Part shown: positions 1 through 9,911 of the stretch, in pieces | Position numbering within the stretch: position 1 is the stretch's first letter | Layout: each line of letters begins with the position of its first letter | Assembly (NCBI GenBank): GCA_965205425.1 | Contig: CBDBGZ010000009.1 | Span: 448,001-512,000 of the forward strand | Source: Nitrosopumilus sp. | GTDB lineage: Archaea > Thermoproteota > Nitrososphaeria > Nitrososphaerales > Nitrosopumilaceae | Reading direction: 5' to 3' | Length of the DNA stretch: 64,000 bases | Notes under the pieces: model-generated | What the model was told of the DNA's origin: nothing | What the model saw: only the letters and a program-made list of their open reading frames with translations | The model's database searches: none | Made by a program: the position numbers and the translations under genes

Positions 1-231
1 TTTTCATCTGGTTGTATATCTATAAGATTCTGTAATTGGAAATCAGAACAGTAAAAAAGATATTTTTTAGGATTTTTTTTAATATCCGTATAATCTACAA
101 AATTAGGATAATCTAAAAATTCACGTTCCCAATTTTTATAATCTGATTGAATTTCATTCATAGAATATTTAGAATGATCCAGCAAACCCCAAGACTTCCT
201 TGAAACAAATACTTTGATACCTGAATCTACA

Positions 232-1273
232 TATCTTTTCCGGAAATTATTTCACCCCTTAACTAGGAGAGCATCATTCCCATACTATCGTATGCGTGGG
301 TATCGTGGCATACCTATGGTAAAGTTAGATGAGAATAAGATCAGGTGGATTATACAATCTAAAAATGAAAAAGTCAAGAATTTAGATATTTCAGTAATCC
401 TCAAGATAACGCCTAGAAGAGTACAACAAGTCTACTCTCAGTACAAAAAAACCAAAAAGATTCCCACACTCAAAAGACCAGGGCGTCCAAAAAAGCCAGT
501 CACTGTACACGAGATAGAGCTAGTCAAACAAGTTCAAGAAAAATTTCATACAAACGCACTATACCTTGAGAAAATCATATCAAAATTGTACAATACCAAG
601 ATAAACCACAATCGCATCCACAAGATTATGCTAGATGAAGGATTATCAGTTGAGCAACCACGGAAAAAGATGAGAAGAAAGTGGATCAGGTATGAACGTG
701 AATATTCAAATTCACTGTGGCATACTGACTGGCACACAATACATGATTCACGCTGGGCAGGAAAACAACTAATTGCATTTGAAGATGATGCCTCACGATT
801 TATCACGGGTTTCGGAGTGTATGATGAGGCAACATCTGTGAATTCTTCTGCAGTACTATCTGATGCAATAAAGAATCACGGTAGACCAGCATCCGTACTA
901 TCTGATAATGGAAAACAGTTCACATCAAATGTCAATACTCTTGATCATAACAAGCCAGTAGACTTTGAGCAGCAACTAATGAGACATCACGTAAAGCACT
1001 CTCGTACAAGAGTGAGACATCCACAAACAAATGGTAAGCTAGAAAAGTTCTGGGATATCTTTGAGTGTAAAATAGAATACTTTGAGTCAGTGGAGCAGTT
1101 TATGCATTGGTACAATCACATTAGAGTTCATGGCGCACTAGACTTGGATAACATGGAGACACCATCTGATGCGTATCACTCCAAGATGATAACAAACGAA
1201 ATACTCATAGACCCAAGTATTCTATGGAGGAATTACTCATGAAAGTGACACGAAATAATTTCTGGAAAGAACA
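232..1273 (+). mobile_element. IS481-family insertion sequence
   Basis: Imperfect 22-bp IRs TATCTTTTCCGGAAATTATTTC / rc TGTTCTTTCCAGAAATTATTTC; 15-bp direct repeat ATACCTGAATCTACA at 217-231 and 1274-1288. Confidence 0.88.
316..1242 (+). CDS. IS481-family transposase (HTH + rve integrase core)
   Basis: LWHTDW, EDDASRF, LSDNGKQF, HPQTNGKLEKF, WYNHIRVHGAL motifs; start placed at MVKL inside the element. Confidence 0.9.
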   Translation: MVKLDENKIRWIIQSKNEKVKNLDISVILKITPRRVQQVYSQYKKTKKIPTLKRPGRPKKPVTVHEIELVKQVQEKFHTNALYLEKIISKLYNTKINHNRIHKIMLDEGLSVEQPRKKMRRKWIRYEREYSNSLWHTDWHTIHDSRWAGKQLIAFEDDASRFITGFGVYDEATSVNSSAVLSDAIKNHGRPASVLSDNGKQFTSNVNTLDHNKPVDFEQQLMRHHVKHSRTRVRHPQTNGKLEKFWDIFECKIEYFESVEQFMHWYNHIRVHGALDLDNMETPSDAYHSKMITNEILIDPSILWRNYS

Positions 1274-1493
1274 ATACCTGAATCTACAGGTGAAGGATAA
1301 ATATGTCTCCAATCACTTGTAGTTTGAAATAATTTTAACAGATAAGCTTGTTTTGTATCTATAACTAAATCACGTCCCATTATTTTAGATGCATTATAAA
1401 ACGAAAGCAATCTATCAAGATCTCTAGTTGGATACGTGCATACAACTAAACCTTCAGTATTTCCAATAACATCAGCAACCTTATCTTCAACAT

Positions 1494-2812
1494 CAGTAGA
1501 TGGGAAAGTACATCAAATTACACATTCTAGAAAATAATTATTTTTGTTATTTCTAAAGTAATGAATAATTATCTTTACAAAGAAATATTTGAGAATTTCA
1601 ATTGATATTATTGGTTTGTGATTTTGTACATTAGTTTCTTCTGAGATAATCAAATTAGCAATTATCCATGCATTGTACAAAATCAATGAATAGTAAAAAT
1701 ACAACAATCTTATGGATTGGTTTGAACTGGTGGTTTTTGGTCTGAACCTTCCCACACATGCATATCCTGTTTCAATTCCCCAACGTTTCTTGTAATCAGT
1801 TGGAATGTTTTGTATGTTATATGATATTTCTTTTGGTGAAACGTTTGTTGCAAACACAACATACTGATCAATAATATTTGATTTTTTTCTTGCATTTTTG
1901 TTTGGTAGAATAACTAGATTAAATGATTCTACATGTCCTGATGATGATTTTATTGTGTATGGCGAGATTGACTTTCTATCTCCATTAACGTATTGTAAAA
2001 TGGCATCTTTGATTCGAGAATTCTTTTTTGCAGGCATTAGAAATTTCAGATTCTTTTGTTTTATTTCTGAAATTGTTCCAGCTGTGAAAAACTCCCTATC
2101 CACTAGCAATAGTTTAATCTTGATTCCATTATTGATGCCATCAGAGAGTAATTTACGCACAAAACCGGCATTTGATATGTTGTCATACAAAGGATAACAA
2201 CCTAGTTGAGCCCTGATTCTTTTTTCAACGCACTGCATGGTGCAGTAACTCTCAAAATGAGTAGTACTGTTTTTTGATTTTGATTTTATTAAAGAATGGT
2301 TTGGCAATTTGTCATATCTTGGGATTAGATGTTTGTCAATTGCCACAGTAACTGGTTGCTCCAATACTCCCAATTCTTGTAATTTTGATACTGTACTATC
2401 CAGTGAACGATGTAATTGAATTTGCATTGTTTTTTGTGATATTTTTGATATGATTTTTCTCAACCATGAACCAGTTGGAGAATGATTCTGGGATTCCATT
2501 GCCAGTCTCTTTAATCCAGATTCAGAATATGAATTTCCCAAACACAATGACATGATAGAATTATGTGCGTCTGCATTGTGGAACCGTGAGTTATTTTTAC
2601 TAGAGCATGGAAACAACAAGATATTGTACATTATTTTAGTGATAATCTCAAATGCTTTAGATAGTATCACGCCTTGGTGTGTCATGGTATCAAATGAAGT
2701 ACAATGCATATTTGATGGAGTGACATACTTTCATCAAGCTTTTTCTATCTGAATAGATTGATTGAATAATTGATAGTTTTTGATCTAAATTGAGTTACTT
2801 TCCCATCTACTG
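1494..2812 (-). mobile_element. ISH3-family (IS4-like) insertion sequence, copy 1
   Basis: 17-bp perfect IR CAGTAGATGGGAAAGTA at both ends; 5-bp TSD AACAT (1489-1493, 2813-2817). Confidence 0.85.
1513..2709 (-). CDS. ISH3-family DDE transposase
   Basis: VAID, LLVDREF and YKKRWGIETGY (YREK-like) motifs; fills the element. Confidence 0.85.
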   Translation of the reverse strand: MHCTSFDTMTHQGVILSKAFEIITKIMYNILLFPCSSKNNSRFHNADAHNSIMSLCLGNSYSESGLKRLAMESQNHSPTGSWLRKIISKISQKTMQIQLHRSLDSTVSKLQELGVLEQPVTVAIDKHLIPRYDKLPNHSLIKSKSKNSTTHFESYCTMQCVEKRIRAQLGCYPLYDNISNAGFVRKLLSDGINNGIKIKLLLVDREFFTAGTISEIKQKNLKFLMPAKKNSRIKDAILQYVNGDRKSISPYTIKSSSGHVESFNLVILPNKNARKKSNIIDQYVVFATNVSPKEISYNIQNIPTDYKKRWGIETGYACVGRFRPKTTSSNQSIRLLYFYYSLILYNAWIIANLIISEETNVQNHKPIISIEILKYFFVKIIIHYFRNNKNNYFLECVI

Positions 2813-3672
2813 AACATCAAATTCATTAATACTACCTTGTTTGTTAATTCTCGTTCCTTCACATAAAAGATAATCAAGATTTTCTAATCCACATTTATCA
2901 ACAAAATTTTGACTATTATTAGGATTTCTTCCATGAAATCTAATATCAGCCGTATATCCAATATCACCTTCAGAAGTATGAATCAAAAATCCAAATACTC
3001 CAGGTAATGAATGATCAATGGGTATTGATTCAACAGTTATTGAATCAAATTTTAGTTCTTTTGAAGGATTAATAATTTGAATATTCCTATCAATCTCGTC
3101 TCTATGCTCAGGATTTTTTGCTCTACTATATTCTCCTTTAGAATTTTTATACATTTTAAAATTTTCTTTGTAAGTAATGTATTCTTCATCGCCACCCATA
3201 TCTTGAAAGCCTTGCATGATTAACTTACTTGCACTAGAACAATAAATTGGAATTTCAGGTCTCAGATAATGTATATATGCACAATGATCAACATGTGCAT
3301 GAGTTAATAAAACTCCATCAACTTGAGTTTCTTCATTATAATCACCATATCCCATATGTTTTGAATAATCTTTACGATAAATTCCTTTAACATCAGGTAA
3401 TAAATCAAATTCAAACAAATCCCCAAACCCATTTAATTTTCTCGGATTCATAAATTCTGCAAAATATTGATTTACTTTGCCCATCTGCATCCCAAAATCA
3501 AGAAAAACTTTAGTATCTTTATCTTTGAGTAAAATTTTATTTCCTCCGATTTCATTTATGCCACCATAAAATGTTAGAGATACCATAGAGATATGATAAC
3601 CACCTATAATAAAAAATAGATTATAAAAATAAACAATCAATATTTCTTGTTATAAAAAAATATTTGATAATA

Positions 3673-3888
3673 CTATTCATTCTCAACAATCATATCAATC
3701 ACATCTCTTTTACTAATATGATATTTTTTTCTATATTCATCAATCATATATACATCGTCTAAAGAAGACAATTCATCCAAAACAAGTTTTTTAGAATATT
3801 CATCTTCTAAAATTTCCAACTGTTCTTTAGAAAATATTGTATTTAATTTTGTTAAATTTTCATTTTGGATGATTATTTCTAAAACCAT
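3673..3888 (-). CDS. small hypothetical protein, possibly with a ribbon-helix-helix-like C-terminus
   Basis: 71-aa ATG ORF directly upstream of and co-oriented with the MBL gene; IDEYRKKYHISKRDVIDMIV resembles RHH helices (weak). Confidence 0.55.
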   Translation of the reverse strand: MVLEIIIQNENLTKLNTIFSKEQLEILEDEYSKKLVLDELSSLDDVYMIDEYRKKYHISKRDVIDMIVENE

Positions 3889-4016
3889 ATGAAAAATAAG
3901 AAATCTGGAGTTTTAAGTAACAGTTATTACATAATACCCTTCAGCATAATCTAAATTTCCCGCATCATACCCACAATCAAGAACAAATGTAAATAAGACA
4001 AACTTGGATTTAAATT

Positions 4017-4997
4017 ATGAAAAATCAATATATAGAAGACCTTCAAGATAATACAGAAATTAATTCAACATTTGCAGTAACATCAAAATCATCACCAGGA
4101 AATTACAAAAATAAAACTGGATTGTGGTTTTCCATTGAAATTACAGATAAAACTGGAAAGATGGATATCAAATATTGGGGAGGATTGGATGAAGAGAAAA
4201 CTGAGAAAATACATAATTCCTTTGAAGTAGGAGACATAATATCAATTACAGGTAAATGTAGATTTGATAATTATTCAAATTCTCTGACAATATCAATTGA
4301 TGAGAAAAATGGACAGACAATTCAAAAAAGTGATACGTTTGATCTAGTAGATTTTCTTCCAACTACAAACAAAGACATAGACAAAATGGTATTAAATTTA
4401 AAAAATATCATTGAAGAAATAGAAAATACAGACATGAAAATACTAATGAAATCTTTCTTTGATGATGCAATATTTTTAGAAAAATATTCAAAAACACCTG
4501 CTGCATCAATATATCATCATAACTACGTAGGAGGATTAATTGAACATGTTTTGAATATGATTGAATTAGCTAAAGTGATATCAACACAATATCCAAATGA
4601 ATTAGATTTGGATTTATTGATTGTGGGATGTATACTTCATGATATAGGAAAAATGAAAGAATTGGAGATGAAAGCATCCATCACATATAGTGTAACAGGT
4701 TCACTACTAGGACATATTACAATAGGATCACACATGGTACAAAACAAAATTGAATCAATAGAGAATTTCCCAGAAAATCTAAAAAATAAAATTCTTCATT
4801 TAATTTTAAGTCATCATGGTTCATTAGAATTTGGATCTCCAGTAGAACCAATGATTCCAGAAGCAATTGTATTAAACAGAATTGATGAATGTGATTCAAA
4901 AACAAAACGTGTATTGCAATTAAAACAAGAACATATGTCTAAAAGTAAAGATGAAATTATCCGTATTAGGAATTTTGGAAAAATGTATTTAAAATAA
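4017..4997 (+). CDS. YhaM/Cbf1-like 3'-5' exoribonuclease (OB fold + HD domain)
   Basis: N-terminal OB-like region (ITDKTGKMDIKYW); PAASIYHHNYVGGLIEH, LHDIGK, LLGHI, ILSHHGSLEFGSP, EAIVLNRIDECD. Confidence 0.88.
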   Translation: MKNQYIEDLQDNTEINSTFAVTSKSSPGNYKNKTGLWFSIEITDKTGKMDIKYWGGLDEEKTEKIHNSFEVGDIISITGKCRFDNYSNSLTISIDEKNGQTIQKSDTFDLVDFLPTTNKDIDKMVLNLKNIIEEIENTDMKILMKSFFDDAIFLEKYSKTPAASIYHHNYVGGLIEHVLNMIELAKVISTQYPNELDLDLLIVGCILHDIGKMKELEMKASITYSVTGSLLGHITIGSHMVQNKIESIENFPENLKNKILHLILSHHGSLEFGSPVEPMIPEAIVLNRIDECDSKTKRVLQLKQEHMSKSKDEIIRIRNFGKMYLK

Positions 4998-5048
4998 AAA
5001 TTACCTGCATTACCGCCTTATCAAATTTAACAAAGTCCACAAACTACA

Positions 5049-5074
5049 ACCTTAGTGCAAATTTGCACTAAGGT
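5049..5074. repeat. 26-bp perfect palindrome ACCTTAGTGCAAATTTGCACTAAGGT
   Basis: The 13-bp arms are exact reverse complements with no spacer. Confidence 0.95.
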
Positions 5075-5090
5075 CAGCAACTAAACCACA

Positions 5091-5986
5091 TATAGCGAAA
5101 AGATAAAGTTCGTGAACTAAATTATTCCAAAACAAAAAACTTTTTGATCACTATGTATGGTAAAATTTGATGAACAAGTTAGAATCACTTGAAGCAGCAT
5201 ACAAAAAAGAAAACTCCAAGGTTGCAGCAAGGATGCTTGCAGTGTTGATGATTCTAAAGGATGGAAAGGACATACAGTGCACTGCAAAGACATTACACCA
5301 CTGCACAAGCTGGGTGAGAAAATGGGTGAGTCGTTTTGAGATAGATGGCCTCTACGATCTCCCAAGAAGTGTAGGCCAAGAACAATCTCCCAGACCAGAA
5401 TGGATTGTATCATGTCAAAAGCAATGCTAACTTTGTTTACTCCCATAATGTTGCAACAAAGTATCTTTTATTCCACTGGAGTAAAATTTCACATAACCCA
5501 CATCAGAAAGATAATGCACCAATACGGCAAGAGAATATTTCTTCCATATACAGGACGACATGAGAGTCTGGTAGTGTATGGTACAATTACAGAAAATGGT
5601 AATCAACTATTCAGAGTTTATAACAAATTCAATGCTGTAACATTTGTAGAATATCTAAAAGAGTTACACTGGAAATACGGCAAAATTGCAATCATTTTAG
5701 ATAGAGCATCAGTTCACAAATCAAAGAAGGTAAAGGAATACCTTGCAAACAATAGAGATGTCAAACTAATCTGGTTGCCAAAGGGATCACCATACTTGAA
5801 CATGATAGAGCAGTGCTGGAAGATAAGCAAATATGCATTGTTGGTTTCAGAGTATTATGCAATGTTTGCAATAATGAACAAGGCAGTGTCCGAATATTTC
5901 AGAGTGACAAAATTCAAGCTTGATGTTGCAAATTATATCTTTAGAAATCCTGCAAAGATGTTTGCGAACTTTTGATCGTCGCTATA
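5091..5986 (+). mobile_element. degenerate IS630-family element (frameshifted, internally deleted)
   Basis: Ends TA|TAGCGAAAAGATAAAGTTCG and rc TA|TAGCGACGATCAAAAGTTCG with TA duplication; HTH fragment 5167-5430 and DDE_3 fragment 5400-5975 (LDRASVH, SPYLNMIEQCW) lacking the first catalytic Asp block. Confidence 0.85.
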
Positions 5987-5989
5987 CAA

Positions 5990-6048
5990 GACGTTATGAC
6001 CATCAGTCTGGAACGCCCGAAGGGTGTTACGACTGAGGAAGGAACGTC
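5990..6048. ncRNA. GC-rich three-segment hairpin; candidate structured RNA or ssDNA element
   Basis: GACGTT/AACGTC, TCAGTC/GACTGA and AACGCCC-GAA-GGGTGTT nested pairings in AT-rich context. Confidence 0.5.
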
Positions 6049-6069
6049 ACAAAATCCATAATAACAATG

Positions 6070-6140
6070 TGGACCCGTTGGGAGTTGAACCCAAATCTCC
6101 TAGTTCTTACTTAGGTGCGTGACCGTCACGCTACGAGCCC
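6070..6140 (-). ncRNA. non-canonical tRNA-like gene (nominal anticodon AAG, short variable loop)
   Basis: Cloverleaf GGGCTCG-TA-GCGT GACGGTC ACGC-A-CCTAA GTAAGAA CTAGG-AGAT-TTGGG TTCAACT CCCAA-CGGGTCC-A, 71 nt. Confidence 0.8.
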
Positions 6141-6175
6141 ACAAAGTATATTAGAAAATACTAAACTAATAATGT

Positions 6176-6191
6176 TAGTTCTTACTTAGGT
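6176..6191. repeat. exact 16-bp copy of the anticodon arm of the tRNA-like gene
   Basis: TAGTTCTTACTTAGGT at 6101-6116 and 6176-6191. Confidence 0.95.
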
Positions 6192-6284
6192 TAGGCCAGC
6201 GCGCTAATCTCTTTTTTCTATTTTCAAAATATGGTACGTGTTTAGGTCCAGACTCACACATATTTTACAGTAGATGGGAAAGTA

Positions 6285-7430
6285 TAGTTAAGGCATTAAA
6301 TATTTGAATAATTTCACAACTCGAACGTCTCCATTATCTAGTCTCTTCTGCATGTGTTTTCTCATCTCAGTTCCATTTGCAAAGAATGTATTGGCATTAC
6401 CATTTTTCTCTTCTCTCCACTGTACCTCAATTGGATTGAGTTCTGGGGTGTATGCAGGAAAATATCTTATGATTACATTTCTTTTTGATACCTTGAGAAA
6501 TTCTTTTACTCTGACACTTTTGTGGTATGATGCATTGTCTGCAAATAATAACAGTTTCTTACCAAATTGTTTCTGCAGTGATTCTAAAAAATCAAGAAAT
6601 GAGTCTGTGTTTGATTTATCATAAAATCTGCAAAAAAATACGCCGTCATCCCCCAATGCACCAAATGATTGAAATTTTTCTCGAGTGTAATTAATTGGTG
6701 TGGTAATGTTATTGCCTGCAAGATACCATCCGCGCTTTATGTTAGGTGCTATCTTGTTTGTTGACTCATCCAGACATAGTGTGGTGTATCCCAATTTGGA
6801 ATATTTTTTGATACTCCTTTTTGCGTTTTTTTAAAACGGGTTTGTTCCTCTTTTGAGGCTGATTTGTGATGTGTGGGACGTGGTTTTTTTGATGAGAATC
6901 CAATTCTGTGCAGCAATTCACGCATTCCTCTTGCAGAGTATAGGGTGTTGTATTTTTTATTCACATGTGTAATTACCATTCTTGTACTCCACATGAATTG
7001 GTTAAATCCAAACTTTTCTGGACCTGAAATTAGATCATTTCTTAATGATACTAGCTGTTTTTCATTTAGAAAACATCTAGAACCAGAATATTTCTTGCGG
7101 TGTGATGCAGATATTCCCTCTTCATCCATTCGATTTAGCCAGTAGGACAGAGTTGATGGTATGACATCCAGACTTGCACATATCACAGAATACGGAATAT
7201 TTTGTTTTCTTAGTATTGCAGCCTTTAATCTTATCTTTGCTTTTGCATTTTTTTCATTCTTGCATACTTTTCTTAAAAAATTAATGCTTGTACCTTTCAT
7301 GAATTGATTTCCAGAGGAAACCTTGGATTGTCTTGTACTCTTTGACATGGTTTCATGAATTGATTCTACGATCTAGATCTTTTGGGTTAAAATACTTGAC
7401 AGTTTATTCAGAATTTATATGCCTAAATTA
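6285..7430 (-). mobile_element. IS630-family element inserted at a TA inside the ISH3 inverted repeat
   Basis: TA duplication at 6283-6284 and 7431-7432; ends TAGTTAAGGCAT / rc TAATTTAGGCAT. Confidence 0.88.
6288..7348 (-). CDS. IS630 transposase in two overlapping ORFs (6749-7348 HTH, 6288-6794 DDE), probable -1 programmed frameshift
   Basis: orfA winged-HTH (MWSTRMV, LHRIGFSSKKPRP); orfB CLDES, ADNASYH, YTPELNPIE; slippery TTTTAAAAAAAC near 6825-6836. Confidence 0.82.
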
Positions 7431-7434
7431 TAAC

Positions 7435-9667
7435 TCAAGTTACACATTCTAGAAAATAATTATTTTTGTTATTTCTAAAGTAATGAATAATTATCTTTAC
7501 AAAGAAATATTTGAGAATTTCAATTGATATTATTGGTTTGTAATTTTTTACATTAGTTTCTTCTGAGATAATCAAATTAGCAATTATCCATGCATTGTAC
7601 AAAATCAATGAATAGTAAAAATACAACAATCTTATGGATTGGTTTGAACTGGTGGTTTTTGGTCTGAACCTTCCCACACATGCATAGCCTGTTTCAATTC
7701 CCCAACGTTTCTTGTAATCAGTTGGAATGTTTTGTATGTTATATGATATTTCTTTTGGTGAAACGTTTGTTGCAAACACAACATACTGATCAATAATATC
7801 TGATTTTTTTCTTGCATTTTTGTTTGGTAGAATAACTAGATTAAATGATTCTACATGTCCTGATGATGATTTTATTGTGTATGGCGAGATTGACTTTCTA
7901 TCTCCATTAACGTATTGTAAAATGGCATCTTTGATTCGAGAATTCTTTTTTGCAGGCATTAGAAATTTTAAATTCCTTTGTTTTATTTCTGAAATTGTTC
8001 CAGCTGTGAAAAACTCCCTATCCACTAGCAATAGTTTAATCTTGATTCCATTATTGATGCCATCAGAGAGTAATTTACGCACAAAATCGGCATTTGATAT
8101 GTTGTCATACAAAGGATAACAACCTAATTGAGCCCTGATTCTTTTTTCAACGCACTGCATGGTGCAGTAACTCTCAAAATGAGTAGTACTGTTTTTAGAT
8201 TTTGATTTTATTAAAGAATGGTTTGGCAATTTGTCATATCTTGGGATTAGATGTTTGTCAATTGCTACAGTAACTGGTTGCTCCAATACTCCCAATTCTT
8301 GTAATTTTGATATGGTACTATCTAGTGACTGATGTAATTGAATTTGCATTGTTTTTTGTGATATTTTTGATATGATTTTTCTCAACCATGAACCAGTTGG
8401 AGAAGCATTATCTGATTCCATTGCCAGTCTCTTTAATCCTGATTCTGCATACGAATTTCCCAAACACAATGACATGATAGAATTATGTGCATCTGCATTG
8501 TGGAACCGTGAGTTATTTTTACTAGAGCATGGAAACAACAAGATATTGTACATTATTTTAGTGATAATCTCGGGTGTGTCCTAAAAGTAGACAAATATAA
8601 CAATTTTATTCAATTCTGTAACATATTGATCGCATGGAATCACAACAACTATGCAAAACAAATCAAAAAGAGACTGGCAAGTATATGGCACATATCGCAA
8701 GGATGAGGAGATTCTATTCTTGGAAAAAGTAAAGAAGACAGTTTGGAGTATGGATACACCATGGGAACCAAAGACAGGCGGACGTCCTGCATTTCCAACA
8801 AAAGCAAAGATAATGTGTGCAATGCTAAAGGTAAAGTTTGGATTGGATTATCGTTCCATGGAGTCCCACTTGAGATCAAGGCCGGATCTGTTGGAAATAA
8901 TGGAGCTCAAAAAAGCACCAAGCAAGACTGTCATTAATGACAGTCTAAAAAGAATTCCAATGCCTTATTTGAAAAAGGTAAACGCAAAACTCACAGAACC
9001 AATCAAAAAAAAGACATAGCTCCTGACAGTTCAGGATTTGGTACCAAAAGATGTGAGGCTTGGTTTGACATCAAGACAAACACGCACAAATCCAAGAAAT
9101 TATATCTAAAACTGCACATCCTAATTGCAATACAGTCCATGGCAATAGTATCTTTTGACATTACTAAAGGAACTCGTGGTGATGCACCAATTCTCAAAAA
9201 ATTAATCAAAGACATTCCAAAGGGAATTGGTGATTTTTGTGCAGATCCTGCATATTTGTCACGAGACATTTGCAATATGGTAGCTACTCTGCAAAAGATA
9301 CCATACATCAAACCAAAGAAGAACACAGTTAGAAATCCCAAAGGCTCTGCATCATGGAAAAAAAATGATAACATTATTCCAGGACAATCAAGATGAATTT
9401 GACAGACATTATCACAAGAGGTCACTTGTTGAATCAGTATTTGCAGTACTCAAAAGAATCTTTGGAAATAGCTTGTCATCAAAAAACAAGTTGGTTCAAA
9501 GAAAAGAGTTGGCGTTGCGTGTAATTTGTTACAACATACGAGTTGTTAATTTGATGGGGGTTACAAAACATGTTAGAGGATAGTTTTAGGACACACCCGA
9601 TAATCTCAAATGCTTTAGATAGTATCACGCCTTGGTGTGTCATGGTATCAAATGAAGTACAATGCAT
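7435..9667 (-). pseudogene. ISH3 transposase split by an IS5 insertion
   Basis: 9599-9667 encodes MHCTSFDTMTHQGVILSKAFEII and 7435-8571 the remainder, matching ORF 1513-2709. Confidence 0.88.
8572..9598 (+). mobile_element. IS5-family element with frameshifted transposase (fragments 8651-9019, ~9020-9396, 9365-9583)
   Basis: 15-bp IR GGGTGTGTCCTAAAA; 9-bp TSD GATAATCTC (8563-8571, 9599-9607); motifs DSSGF, CADPAY, YHKRSLVESVFAVLKR; frame changes at A-runs near 9006 and 9358. Confidence 0.85.
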
Positions 9668-9837
9668 ATTTGATGGAGTGACATACTTCCATCAAGCTTT
9701 TTCTATCTGAATAGATTGATTGAATAATTGATAGTTTTTGATCTAAATTGAGTTACTTTCCCATCTACTGAATTATAGTCAAATCTTTCCATCAATTGAT
9801 ATAGAATATGGGACAAGATAAAGGCTCAGTTGTGGTA

Positions 9838-9911
9838 TGGGCCCGAAGGGCTTCGATCCCTTGGCTCACCGGTTATGAGCCGGTTACTCTACCAAGCTGA
9901 GTTACGGGCCC
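9838..9911 (-). tRNA. tRNA with CAU anticodon, probably tRNA-Ile2 (agmatidine type) rather than Met
   Basis: GGGCCCG acceptor; anticodon arm ACCGG-CTCATAA-CCGGT; T arm AAGGG-ATCGAAG-CCCTT; no initiator A1-U72 pair. Confidence 0.9.

What the first reader, a model, noticed from the sequence alone, without database searches (positions are those of the whole stretch)
6070..6191. Non-canonical tRNA-like gene whose anticodon arm is exactly copied just upstream of itself
Seen: a complete 71-nt cloverleaf on the minus strand with good acceptor, D and T arms but an aberrant anticodon arm (A-C closing mismatch, G32, AAG anticodon, 4-nt variable loop). The 16-mer spanning that arm (ACCTAAGTAAGAACTA) recurs exactly 35 bp upstream, next to a TATA-like ATTATTA. 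Known: archaea essentially lack A34 tRNAs and Leu tRNAs have a long variable arm, so this is unlikely to be a decoding tRNA-Leu. Inference: it may be a tRNA scaffold displaying a guide or operator-mimic sequence aimed at its own promoter (autoregulation, decoy for a DNA-binding protein, or decoy for an anticodon nuclease). Alternatively the two 16-mers are paired protein-binding or recombination sites.
Basis: partly seen in the sequence, partly recalled or inferred. Interest (0 to 1): 0.85.

Follow-up and report, generated by a model that had tools for sequence, protein, structure and literature searches.

The report
Miscoding tRNA paired with antisense RNA
An odd tRNA gene in an ammonia-oxidising archaeon is built to carry alanine but read a leucine codon, and the copy of its anticodon arm just upstream looks like the gene for a small RNA made to bind and mask that anticodon.

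Summary
A 71-nt cloverleaf lies at 6070-6140 (-), scoring 47.1 bits against Rfam tRNA. Its anticodon-arm 16-mer recurs exactly 35 nt upstream (6176-6191).

It is not a one-off. The genome has three such units, and 14 of 151 Nitrosopumilus genomes hold relatives. In each unit the arm and the upstream copy change together.

All 25 aligned family members keep G3:U70, the alanine identity pair. Their anticodons are for Leu, Phe or Asp.

Read on the opposite strand, the upstream copy sits 22-27 nt after a TATA-like box. A hairpin-capable scaffold and a T-run follow it. This predicts a roughly 43-nt small RNA whose 5' end is antisense to the tRNA's positions 26-42.

Four sister tRNAs in this genome carry the same RNA gene downstream, in inverted orientation. 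The predicted product is the same.

Where guide and arm differ by a transition, 22 of 23 cases are G:U wobbles. That pattern fits RNA:RNA pairing.

Best reading: a miscoding tRNA with its own masking RNA, possibly an RNA-only toxin-antitoxin pair. No RNA data could be obtained, so expression, charging and toxicity are inferred. The scan's earlier notes hold no such pairing.

The parts
6070..6140 (-). tRNA-like gene, 71 nt. Alanine-type body (G1-C72, G2-C71, G3:U70, A73), anticodon AAG, 4-nt variable loop, A.C at 31-39.
   Evidence: ARAGORN; Rfam tRNA 47.1 bits. Family cloverleaf: 95.8% of cells paired, 15 of 21 pairs with double changes, G3:U70 in 25 of 25.
6101..6116 (-). Target site in the tRNA: A26, the 5' strand of the anticodon stem, the loop, and the first 3 nt of the 3' strand. 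This is the 16-mer.
   Evidence: Exact repeat D4. Predicted duplex with the opposite-strand reading of 6175-6191 is 16 Watson-Crick pairs plus 1 G:U.
6166..6174 (-). TATA-like box for the tRNA gene, at -34..-26 from the mature 5' end.
   Evidence: Same position as the A/T peak upstream of canonical tRNA genes in this genome. Conserved in all type A units.
6147..6154 (+). TATA-like box for the predicted antisense small RNA, 21-28 nt before the guide.
   Evidence: A box of the same kind stands at the same offset (index about 5-13 from the tRNA boundary, guide at 31-39; 55 in one unit) in all 24 units of both layouts, by my reading of the 24 printed spacers. It resembles the canonical tRNA TATA boxes.
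6175..6191 (+). Guide segment of the predicted small RNA, antisense to tRNA positions 26-42.
   Evidence: Covaries with the arm across units.
6192..6211 (+). Conserved scaffold of the predicted small RNA. It can form a hairpin and is partly antisense to the tRNA D-arm region.
   Evidence: Conserved block in all type A units. RNAfold hairpin of -7.7 kcal/mol. The block base opposite tRNA position 12 tracks G/A in 12 of 12 units (read).
6212..6217 (+). T6 run, the predicted archaeal terminator of the small RNA.
   Evidence: A T-run of 4 or more follows the scaffold in 23 of 24 units, and of 5 or more in 21 of 24.
5091..5986 (+). Context: IS630-like element with 27-nt terminal inverted repeats. 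Its end lies 83 nt downstream of the tRNA-like gene.
   Evidence: Inverted repeat I2. ORFs 5167-5430 and 5400-5975. The IS630 label is my reading of the transposase sequence; a related copy in L093 matches Pfam DDE_3.
6231..7348 (-). Context: second IS630-like element. Its end (6231-6269) is a multi-copy repeat in the genome and abuts the small-RNA terminator region.
   Evidence: eight further copies of 6231-6269. ORFs 6288-6794 and 6749-7348.

Best explanation
The locus is a two-gene, RNA-only module.

Gene 1 (6070-6140, minus strand) is a tRNA with an alanine-type body and a leucine anticodon (AAG). Because alanyl-tRNA synthetase reads G3:U70 and ignores the anticodon, it should be charged with alanine. 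It would then put alanine at CUU codons, or at least compete there.

Gene 2 (about 6175-6217, plus strand, divergent) is a small RNA of roughly 43 nt. Its first 17 nt are antisense to positions 26-42 of gene 1. A scaffold and a U-tail follow.

The two promoters are interleaved in the 35-nt spacer. The small RNA is proposed to open the anticodon arm and mask the anticodon, which keeps the miscoding tRNA out of the ribosome.

Each paralogue has its own arm and guide sequence, so the pairs are insulated from one another.

Shown by computation: the repeat, the covariation, the tRNA fold and G3:U70 conservation, the promoter-like box, the T-run, the two layouts, and cognate duplex preference.

Inferred: transcription of the small RNA, duplex formation in the cell, alanine charging, miscoding, and the physiological role. 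The most likely role is a toxin-antitoxin-like addiction or defence module on mobile DNA.
For: 1. Covariation. In 24 of 24 intact units from G000, nine other genomes and three metagenome contigs, a 13-21 nt segment beside the tRNA pairs with its anticodon arm. Over the fixed window 27-41, 330 of 360 positions are Watson-Crick, 22 are G:U, 1 is A:C and 7 are other mismatches. Cognate pairs average 14.7 of 15 paired against 10.2 for 552 non-cognate combinations.

2. Concerted change. Units C4-1 and G153a differ at 5 of 151 positions. Four of these are the same double substitution in both copies, while the DNA between the copies is unchanged.

3. Two layouts, one product. The three type A units have a direct copy upstream. 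Four sister tRNAs of G000, and five more in other genomes, have an inverted copy 31-39 nt downstream (54 nt in one unit). In every case the strand that carries a TATA-like box before the segment and a hairpin plus T-run after it reads antisense to the arm.

4. Wobble asymmetry. Of 23 transition-type departures from Watson-Crick pairing, 22 are G:U and 1 is A:C. This is expected for RNA:RNA pairing and not for DNA identity.

5. Specificity. In G000 the cognate duplex is the most stable in 6 of 6 rows and columns: -40 to -46 kcal/mol against -13 to -35.

6. The tRNA is under selection. 95.8% of cloverleaf cells are paired against 77% in shuffles. 15 of 21 pairs show double changes. G3:U70 is present in 25 of 25 and A73 in 24 of 25.

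7. G3:U70 is restricted. In G000 it occurs in the 3 canonical tRNA-Ala genes and the 7 odd tRNAs. One further call, tRNA-Pro(GGG), is ambiguous because of register.

8. Control. Of the 53 tRNAs in G000, the 7 odd ones have 11-16 contiguous Watson-Crick matches to a flank. The other 46 have 9 or fewer.

9. Published support. tRNA-Ala anticodon variants mis-incorporate alanine and slow yeast growth (PMC10543346, abstract read).
Against: - There is no expression evidence. No RNA run holds the locus, and the runs laid were DNA contigs.
- G007 has a central G.G mismatch, and G169b lacks a T-run.
- The two 16-mers do recombine at the DNA level. G014 holds the deletion product and G161 a duplication. 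Intra-unit gene conversion therefore cannot be excluded as a contributor to their identity.
- Many G:U pairs lie at the edges of the fixed window, where the guide may already be scaffold. Related units also share ancestry, so 22:1 overstates the number of independent events.
- The A.C or C.C 31-39 mismatch (13 of 25 members unpaired), G32 and unmodifiable A34 may make type A tRNAs poor decoders.
- Interleaved divergent promoters within 35 nt are unusual.
- Two small-RNA genes in G153 have no matching tRNA in that genome.
Confidence: 0.65

Rival explanations
1. The identity is purely at the DNA level. The two 16-mers are kept identical by intra-locus gene conversion, or are recombination sites, and no small RNA is made. 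The tRNA-like gene is a decaying or selfish pseudo-tRNA in IS-rich DNA.
For: Deletion (G014, L015) and duplication (G161, L025) products with breakpoints in the 16-mers exist. Mosaic units such as L041 show frequent recombination among family members. The locus sits between two IS elements. There are no RNA data.
Against: - Gene conversion does not explain why sister units carry the copy inverted and downstream with the same box-to-segment spacing, hairpin and T-run.
- It does not explain why 22 of 23 transition differences go in the G:U-compatible direction.
- It does not explain the conserved scaffold and T-run beside the copy.
- The cloverleaf and G3:U70 are under clear selection, so this is not a decaying pseudogene.
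Confidence: 0.12
2. The small RNA exists but acts as a maturation or modification guide, or a chaperone, for its tRNA. It might direct a modification or processing step in the anticodon loop. It would not be an inhibitor, and the module would be a regulated recoding device and not a toxin-antitoxin pair.
For: It rests on the same covariation and gene structure as the best explanation. Archaea use guide RNAs on tRNA anticodon loops (box C/D guides; general knowledge). An earlier scan note, e1-7686562, reports such a guide on a provirus in this genome.
Against: No C or D boxes are visible in the scaffold. No Rfam family other than tRNA reaches its gathering score at 5980-6300. A continuous 16-17-bp duplex covering the whole loop leaves no bulged target nucleotide of the kind known guide systems use. 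No protein partner is conserved next to the units.
Confidence: 0.13
3. The tRNA-like RNA, or a protein that binds both copies, acts on the upstream DNA copy at the gene's own promoter. This could be autoregulation by an R-loop or operator mimicry, or a decoy for an anticodon nuclease.
For: In type A units the copy abuts the tRNA's TATA-like box. The tRNA's arm could in principle pair with the template strand there.
Against: In type B units the copy lies downstream of the tRNA gene and is inverted, far from the tRNA promoter. A promoter-directed model therefore does not generalise. A different sequence-specific protein would be needed for every paralogue. The wobble asymmetry points to RNA:RNA pairing.
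Confidence: 0.05

Closest known systems
Type VIII toxin-antitoxin pairs (RNA toxin neutralised by an antisense RNA antitoxin, e.g. SdsR/RyeA; passages of PMC8610362 read). Archaeal CreT/CreA is recalled from memory and was not seen in a call.
   Same: Both partners are RNAs. The protective RNA is proposed to act by antisense binding to the harmful RNA. The genes are adjacent, and the modules are patchy, multi-copy and linked to mobile or variable DNA.
   Different: Here the presumed toxin is a complete aminoacylatable tRNA, not a regulatory small RNA. The partner is not transcribed from the opposite strand of the same DNA; it is a separate gene carrying a copy of the target. Toxicity and differential stability are untested.
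Engineered or natural tRNA-Ala anticodon variants that mis-incorporate alanine (yeast: PMC10543346, abstract read; human variants: PMC12084884, search listing only)
   Same: G3:U70 alanine identity combined with a non-alanine anticodon. The predicted outcome is alanine at Leu, Phe or Asp codons.
   Different: Those are single mutants of ordinary tRNA-Ala genes and have no dedicated regulator. Here a conserved, diversified gene family keeps the chimeric design, and each member has a cognate antisense RNA gene.
Bacterial mistranslating tRNA families (PMC10404621, search listing only) and the serine-type tRNAs with a Phe anticodon noted earlier in this same genome (e1-7820712)
   Same: Naturally encoded tRNAs whose identity elements and anticodon disagree. 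Both use synthetases that ignore the anticodon.
   Different: No antisense partner has been described for them. In G000 the three serine-type genes have no flank complementarity above background (7 contiguous matches).
Archaeal box C/D guide sRNAs that target tRNA anticodon loops (general knowledge)
   Same: A small RNA with a 10-20-nt antisense element directed at a tRNA anticodon arm.
   Different: The scaffold has no C/D or C'/D' boxes. The guide sits at the extreme 5' end. The duplex covers the whole loop. Each guide is private to one adjacent non-canonical tRNA.
RtT-like tRNA-trailer repeats (earlier scan note e1-7544255, another genome)
   Same: A sequence beside a tRNA gene mirrors its anticodon arm.
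   Different: There the match was judged a by-product of repeats built from tRNA tails. Here the mirror segment covaries with the arm across paralogues and genomes and has its own promoter-like box and terminator.

Membership tests
tRNA (Rfam RF00005) | Covariance-model score at or above the gathering threshold over the full model | tested here: met
   47.1 bits against 29, model positions 1-71 of 71.
tRNA (Rfam RF00005) | Cloverleaf maintained by compensatory changes, with conserved tertiary nucleotides (U8, G18-G19, C56) | tested here: met
   95.8% of cells paired, 15 of 21 pairs with double changes, 0 of 500 shuffles as high. T8, the GG of the D loop and C56 are invariant in 25 sequences.
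tRNA-Ala (alanine identity) | G3:U70 wobble pair in the acceptor stem | tested here: met
   G:U at 3-70 in 25 of 25 family members. In G000 it is otherwise found in the 3 canonical tRNA-Ala genes, plus one ambiguous register in tRNA-Pro.
tRNA-Ala (alanine identity) | Discriminator A73 | tested here: met
   A in the window gene and in 24 of 25 members; G in G163a.
tRNA-Ala (alanine identity) | Alanine anticodon NGC | tested here: not met
   The anticodon is AAG here. Relatives have GAG, CAG, GAA, GTC or ATC. It is therefore not an alanine isoacceptor in the decoding sense.
tRNA-Ala (alanine identity) | Aminoacylation with alanine by AlaRS | not testable with these tools
   Needs a charging assay.
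tRNA-Leu | Class II body with a long variable arm | tested here: not met
   The variable loop is 4 nt. The genome's canonical tRNA-Leu genes are 86-88 nt.
Type VIII (RNA-RNA) toxin-antitoxin system | An antitoxin RNA that base-pairs with the toxin RNA | tested here: inconclusive
   Complementarity, covariation and cognate duplex preference are shown in silico. Neither transcription nor pairing in cells has been shown.
Type VIII (RNA-RNA) toxin-antitoxin system | The toxin RNA harms the cell when the antitoxin is absent, and the antitoxin is less stable | not testable with these tools
   There is only indirect support. 11 degenerate units keep the small-RNA template but have lost the tRNA, against 1 that kept the tRNA and lost the partner together with its promoter. 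The search was biased toward the small-RNA block.
Box C/D guide sRNA | C (RUGAUGA) and D (CUGA) boxes flanking the guide | tested here: not met
   No such boxes in 6175-6217 by reading. No Rfam family other than tRNA reaches its gathering score at 5980-6300.
Integrase att-site duplication at a tRNA gene | Direct repeats of a tRNA part flanking an integrated element with an integrase | tested here: not met
   Only 59 nt lie between the repeats and there is no ORF. Sister units carry the copy inverted.
Split or permuted archaeal tRNA gene | Separate halves with complementary leader and trailer that form a bulge-helix-bulge for trans-splicing | tested here: not met
   The tRNA gene is complete and continuous. 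The partner pairs with the arm in a continuous duplex without bulges.

The most novel reading that the evidence does not exclude
Nitrosopumilus mobile DNA carries RNA-only toxin-antitoxin modules. The toxin is an alanine-accepting tRNA that misreads Leu, Phe or Asp codons. The antitoxin is a short-lived private antisense RNA that masks its anticodon. If the antisense RNA is lost, through loss of the element or a shut-off of transcription on infection, the stable tRNA is freed and corrupts the proteome.
Probability: 0.3. Interest if true: 0.92.

Novelty: categorically new. Interest (0 to 1): 0.86.

Why it matters
If the pairing is real, a cell or its mobile DNA deliberately encodes tRNAs that break the genetic code and keeps each one in check with a dedicated anti-tRNA RNA. 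That would be a new kind of gene module and a new use for a tRNA, as a weapon or addiction factor.

It would also be a natural example of programmable, orthogonal RNA control of single tRNA species, which would interest work on synthetic recoding.

It turns an open question into a testable one: do organisms use regulated mistranslation, and how do they contain it? The pairs are small, self-contained and specific, and could be moved into a laboratory host.

It also warns annotators that 'tRNA-Leu(AAG)', 'tRNA-Asp' and 'tRNA-Phe' calls in these archaea can be alanine-type chimeras.

Tried and rejected
- RNA evidence. The look-up of sequencing runs listed no RNA holder. The four runs laid were all contigs, probably DNA, and say nothing about expression. 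They showed only paralogue-like variants with the same substitutions 75 nt apart, and one contig in which 6056-6120 is replaced by 145 other letters.
- Viruses. The tRNA 3'-half pattern gave 0 loci in viral contigs. The type B scaffold pattern gave 3 loci, none with a tRNA or a module.
- Outside the genus. 24 genomes of other families gave one 36-nt match at E 0.006. A scaffold pattern search of 401 genomes of the order gave exact matches only in G000, G153 and G036. One-mismatch hits elsewhere were about as frequent as hits of the reversed control pattern.
- Genome contigs block pattern. 16 loci were found. Ten are Nitrosopumilus or Nitrososphaerota units already seen, and six are chance matches in bacteria.
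- Rejected readings: integrase att duplication, tandem duplication, a 60-nt insertion with target-site duplication, a split or permuted tRNA, a box C/D guide, and a DGR-like template/variable repeat. See the membership tests for reasons.
- Protein partner. Pfam on 48 neighbouring ORFs from 16 loci found transposases in 7 loci, and single TraG-like, ParB-like, NACHT-related and AAA proteins. None recurs.
- The 53-aa ORF next to four type B units has no Pfam or PHROG match, and only sub-threshold NCBIfam hits.
- Orphan type B small RNAs of G153. No matching tRNA arm was found in that genome at 1 mismatch or fewer.
- Literature. Six searches found no description of a tRNA gene paired with an antisense RNA gene in Thaumarchaeota or elsewhere. 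The library lacks most subscription journals. One search failed on a term-format error and was re-sent.

Full report
**1. The observation**

The window holds a 71-nt cloverleaf at 6070-6140 on the minus strand. ARAGORN calls it tRNA-Leu(AAG). Rfam's tRNA model matches it end to end at 47.1 bits, against a gathering score of 29. That is higher than the canonical tRNA-Asp of the same window, which scores 43.1 bits.

- an A.C mismatch at 31-39
- G32 and anticodon A34-A35-G36
- a 4-nt variable loop
- good acceptor, D and T arms

The 16-mer covering A26, the 5' strand of the anticodon stem, the loop and three further bases occurs exactly twice. The copies are at 6101-6116 and 6176-6191, 75 nt apart. 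Chance expectation is 0.03 matches per window even with two mismatches allowed.

The locus lies in an 83 + 90-nt gap between two IS630-like elements. One ends at 5986 and the other at 6231.

**2. It is a family, and the two copies change together**

The genome (G000, 2.2 Mb, a Nitrosopumilus by the record titles of its relatives) has two more units in tandem on contig 4. Each unit has its own arm sequence, and each repeats that sequence exactly 35 nt upstream of its tRNA.

Relatives occur in 14 of 151 genomes of the genus, counting G000. They also occur on three distinct metagenome contigs among 32 loci hit by a tRNA 3'-half pattern.

Across twelve intact units of this layout ('type A'):
- the copy equals the arm in seven (W, C4-1, C4-2, G153a, G163a, MG49, MG56)
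- it differs at one position in four (G007, G015, G169b, G166)
- it differs at two positions in one (G169c)

The sharpest case is C4-1 against G153a. The two units differ at 5 of 151 positions. Four of those are the same dinucleotide change in both copies, while the 59 nt between the copies are identical. A single conversion tract cannot produce that pattern.

As a control, none of the 50 other ARAGORN tRNAs of G000 shares more than 9 nt with its upstream 250 nt.

**3. What the tRNA is**

An alignment of 25 family members supports the cloverleaf strongly.
- 95.8% of pair cells are standard pairs, against 77.2% in shuffles and 34-46% with slid partners.
- 15 of 21 pairs show changes on both sides.
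- G1-C72, G2-C71 and the G3:U70 wobble are invariant in 25 of 25. The discriminator is A in 24 of 25.

G3:U70 with A73 is the universal alanine identity set (established knowledge; also stated in the abstract of PMC10543346). In G000 it is found in the three canonical tRNA-Ala genes and in seven odd tRNAs. One further tRNA-Pro call is ambiguous because of alignment register.

Several unrelated archaeal tRNA-Ala(GGC/UGC) genes on metagenome contigs share nearly the same acceptor stem, variable loop and T arm (L046, L052, L072).

The family's anticodons are never alanine. They are AAG, GAG, CAG (Leu), GAA (Phe), and GTC, ATC (Asp). The long variable arm that defines tRNA-Leu is absent.

These are therefore alanine-type bodies carrying foreign anticodons. 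Such chimeras are known to mis-incorporate alanine when engineered (PMC10543346, abstract). I saw those three genes in the ARAGORN list. Alanine and serine are the identities whose synthetases ignore the anticodon.

**4. What the upstream copy is**

Same-sense copies cannot pair as RNA, so I read the other strand. On the plus strand the order is:
- a TATA-like box (6147-6154)
- about 20 nt of spacer
- the antisense of the arm (6175-6191)
- a conserved 20-nt scaffold that can fold into a hairpin (6192-6211)
- T6 (6212-6217)

This is the layout of a small archaeal RNA gene: promoter, about 43 nt of RNA, and an oligo-T terminator.

Three lines of evidence support this reading.

(a) The four other alanine-type odd tRNAs of G000 have an inverted copy of their own anticodon arm downstream on the same strand. 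Three are called 'Asp(GTC)' and one 'Phe(GAA)'. The copy is 11-15 nt exact and starts 31-34 nt after the tRNA, or 54 nt in one case. It is preceded by a TATA-like box and followed by an 8-bp hairpin, the letters CTAGCC, and a T-run ('type B'). Homologues in five more genomes covary in the same way, including one with anticodon ATC whose guide tracks the A34.

So two different gene arrangements, divergent-upstream and tandem-downstream, give the same predicted product: 5' guide, then hairpin, then U-tail.

A third subtype has a different scaffold, again ending in CTAGCC plus a T-rich tail, and shows the direct-upstream layout (L100, L101, L108). Two divergent type A units replace the usual block with a clean hairpin and T-run (L027, L040).

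(b) Geometry. In all 24 units the box lies at index about 5-13 from the tRNA boundary. The guide starts at 31-39, or 55 in one unit. The box resembles the TATA-like boxes of canonical tRNA genes of this genome, which stand at -33..-26. A T-run of 4 or more follows within 45 nt in 23 of 24 units, and of 5 or more in 21 of 24. The other A/T box of the type A spacer (6166-6174) sits exactly at the canonical tRNA position, so the two promoters are interleaved back to back.

(c) Wobble asymmetry. I counted over the fixed window of tRNA positions 27-41 in 24 cognate pairs, which is 360 positions. Of these, 330 are Watson-Crick, 22 are G:U, 1 is A:C and 7 are other mismatches.

Strand-symmetric mutation, or DNA-level identity, would give both kinds of transition mismatch. 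Only the kind tolerated in an RNA:RNA helix between the antisense transcript and the tRNA is seen.

There are caveats. Some G:U pairs are at the window edges, and related units share ancestry.

**5. Further support and limits**

Within G000 the predicted duplex of each small RNA with its own tRNA is the most stable in every row and column of a 6 x 6 matrix. Cognate values are -40 to -46 kcal/mol and non-cognate values are -13 to -35.

For the window unit, cofolding gives -50.9 kcal/mol against -35.8 for the two RNAs apart. These figures ignore tertiary structure and modifications.

A genome-wide control ranks the seven odd tRNAs at 11-16 contiguous Watson-Crick matches to a flank. The 46 others have 9 or fewer. 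The three serine-type chimeras score 7, so they have no adjacent partner.

In type A, the scaffold is also a diverged antisense of the D-arm region. The block base opposite tRNA position 12 follows the tRNA's G or A in 12 of 12 units (read).

No protein gene is consistently adjacent. Neighbours are transposases, a TraG-like protein, a ParB-like protein, a NACHT-related protein and an AAA protein, which points to variable, mobile DNA.

Many units are degenerate. Eleven keep the small-RNA template but have a truncated or missing tRNA, several cut by IS elements at the TA of positions 8-9. One has an intact tRNA whose partner and promoter were replaced by an IS. That skew fits a harmful tRNA, but my motif search favoured units that keep the block.

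The 16-mers also recombine. G014 holds the precise deletion product and G161 a duplication. L041 is a mosaic in which a whole type B module replaces the 5' part of a type A tRNA.

**6. What could not be done**

No RNA-seq run holds the locus. The contigs laid are not informative about transcription. Expression of either RNA, alanine charging, decoding and any toxicity are therefore inferences.

The A.C or C.C 31-39 mismatch (13 of 25 members), G32 and A34 may weaken decoding by type A members. A recent paper links 4-bp anticodon stems to relaxed decoding in bacteria (PMC13092985, search listing only).

**7. Mechanism proposed**

The tRNA is transcribed from the box at -34..-26, processed, and probably charged with alanine. 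The small RNA is transcribed divergently from the interleaved promoter. Its 5' 17 nt invade the weak, 4-bp anticodon stem and sequester positions 26-42. The tRNA then cannot decode.

Private arm and guide sequences keep the paralogous pairs from cross-talking. The following features fit a toxin-antitoxin-like addiction or defence role:
- patchy distribution: 14 of 151 genomes for type A and 10 of 151 for type B
- multiple copies per genome
- links to mobile DNA
- decay that is skewed toward loss of the tRNA

The closest known system is type VIII, in which an RNA toxin is masked by an antisense RNA (PMC8610362, passages read).

I put 0.65 on the antisense pair and about 0.3 on the toxin-antitoxin role.

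**8. Comparison and novelty**

The gene is a member of the tRNA family by every test run. It is not a tRNA-Leu, and it is not an alanine isoacceptor. The module resembles type VIII toxin-antitoxin pairs in how it would work, but their defining properties (toxicity, instability of the antitoxin) are untested.

Six literature searches found no description of a tRNA gene paired with its own antisense RNA gene. The library lacks most subscription journals, so the claim is limited to those searches.

The scan's earlier notes contain no such pairing. One note on another genome (e1-7544255) describes an anticodon-arm mirror in tRNA-tail repeats that was judged incidental. The covariation seen here separates the two cases.

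Noticed in passing
G000:C9:254430-254610, C9:711150-711332, C2:54826-54987, C8:191580-191753 (loci L089-L092): Four more alanine-type tRNAs (anticodons GTC x3 and GAA), each followed by its own small-RNA gene: TATA-like box, 11-15-nt antisense guide, 8-bp hairpin, CTAGCC, T-run. These gave the key to the window locus.
   Followed up: yes
L093:1269-1430 (-) = G000:C9:254191-254349; also L094, L107, G000:C8:191834-191977: A conserved 53-aa ORF (starting MPKWK) lies divergently about 80-100 nt upstream of four type B tRNAs. It has no Pfam or PHROG family. The only hits are sub-threshold NCBIfam matches, including a PrlF-type antitoxin at E 0.048. It may be a small DNA-binding regulator of these modules.
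   Followed up: partly
L015 (G014:C2:18183-18274) and L025 (G161:C1:1073575-1073688): These are recombination products between the two 16-mers. G014 has block + 16-mer joined directly to the tRNA 3' half, with the promoter and 5' half deleted. G161 has a tandem repeat of promoter + 5' half.
   Followed up: partly
L041 (metagenome contig, 400-660, minus strand): A mosaic unit. A type A small-RNA gene and spacer are followed by a complete type B tRNA plus its small RNA, and then by the 3' part of a type A tRNA. A similar replacement of window 6056-6120 by 145 other letters appears in one contig of run X1.
   Followed up: partly
L097 and L106 (G153:C1:419479-419514 and 541067-541102): Two type A tRNAs are followed by a type-B-style small-RNA gene whose guide matches an Asp-like arm found nowhere else in that genome. 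These are orphan guides, probably relics of recombination.
   Followed up: yes
G000:C8:120792-120883, C9:254931-255020, C9:901280-901368; also C9:356124-356210 and C9:1042184-1042268: Class II (long variable arm) tRNA-like genes with anticodons GAA, CCT and ACC. One of them lies 430 nt from a type B module. None has an adjacent antisense copy.
   Followed up: partly
window 1-9700: An IS-dense island next to tRNA-Met (9838-9911). It holds an rve-type transposase (214-1242), two near-identical transposase genes (1513-2709 and 7435-8553), two IS630-like elements (5091-5986 and 6231-7348), and a broken IS5-like gene (8651-9583). Family labels are my reading of the ORFs.
   Followed up: no
L014 and L020 (G036:C2:457938 and 263107): The same IS end abuts a type A tRNA exactly at its 5' end in one place. 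In another place it interrupts a different unit at the TA of tRNA positions 8-9. IS630-like elements appear to hit these units repeatedly.
   Followed up: no
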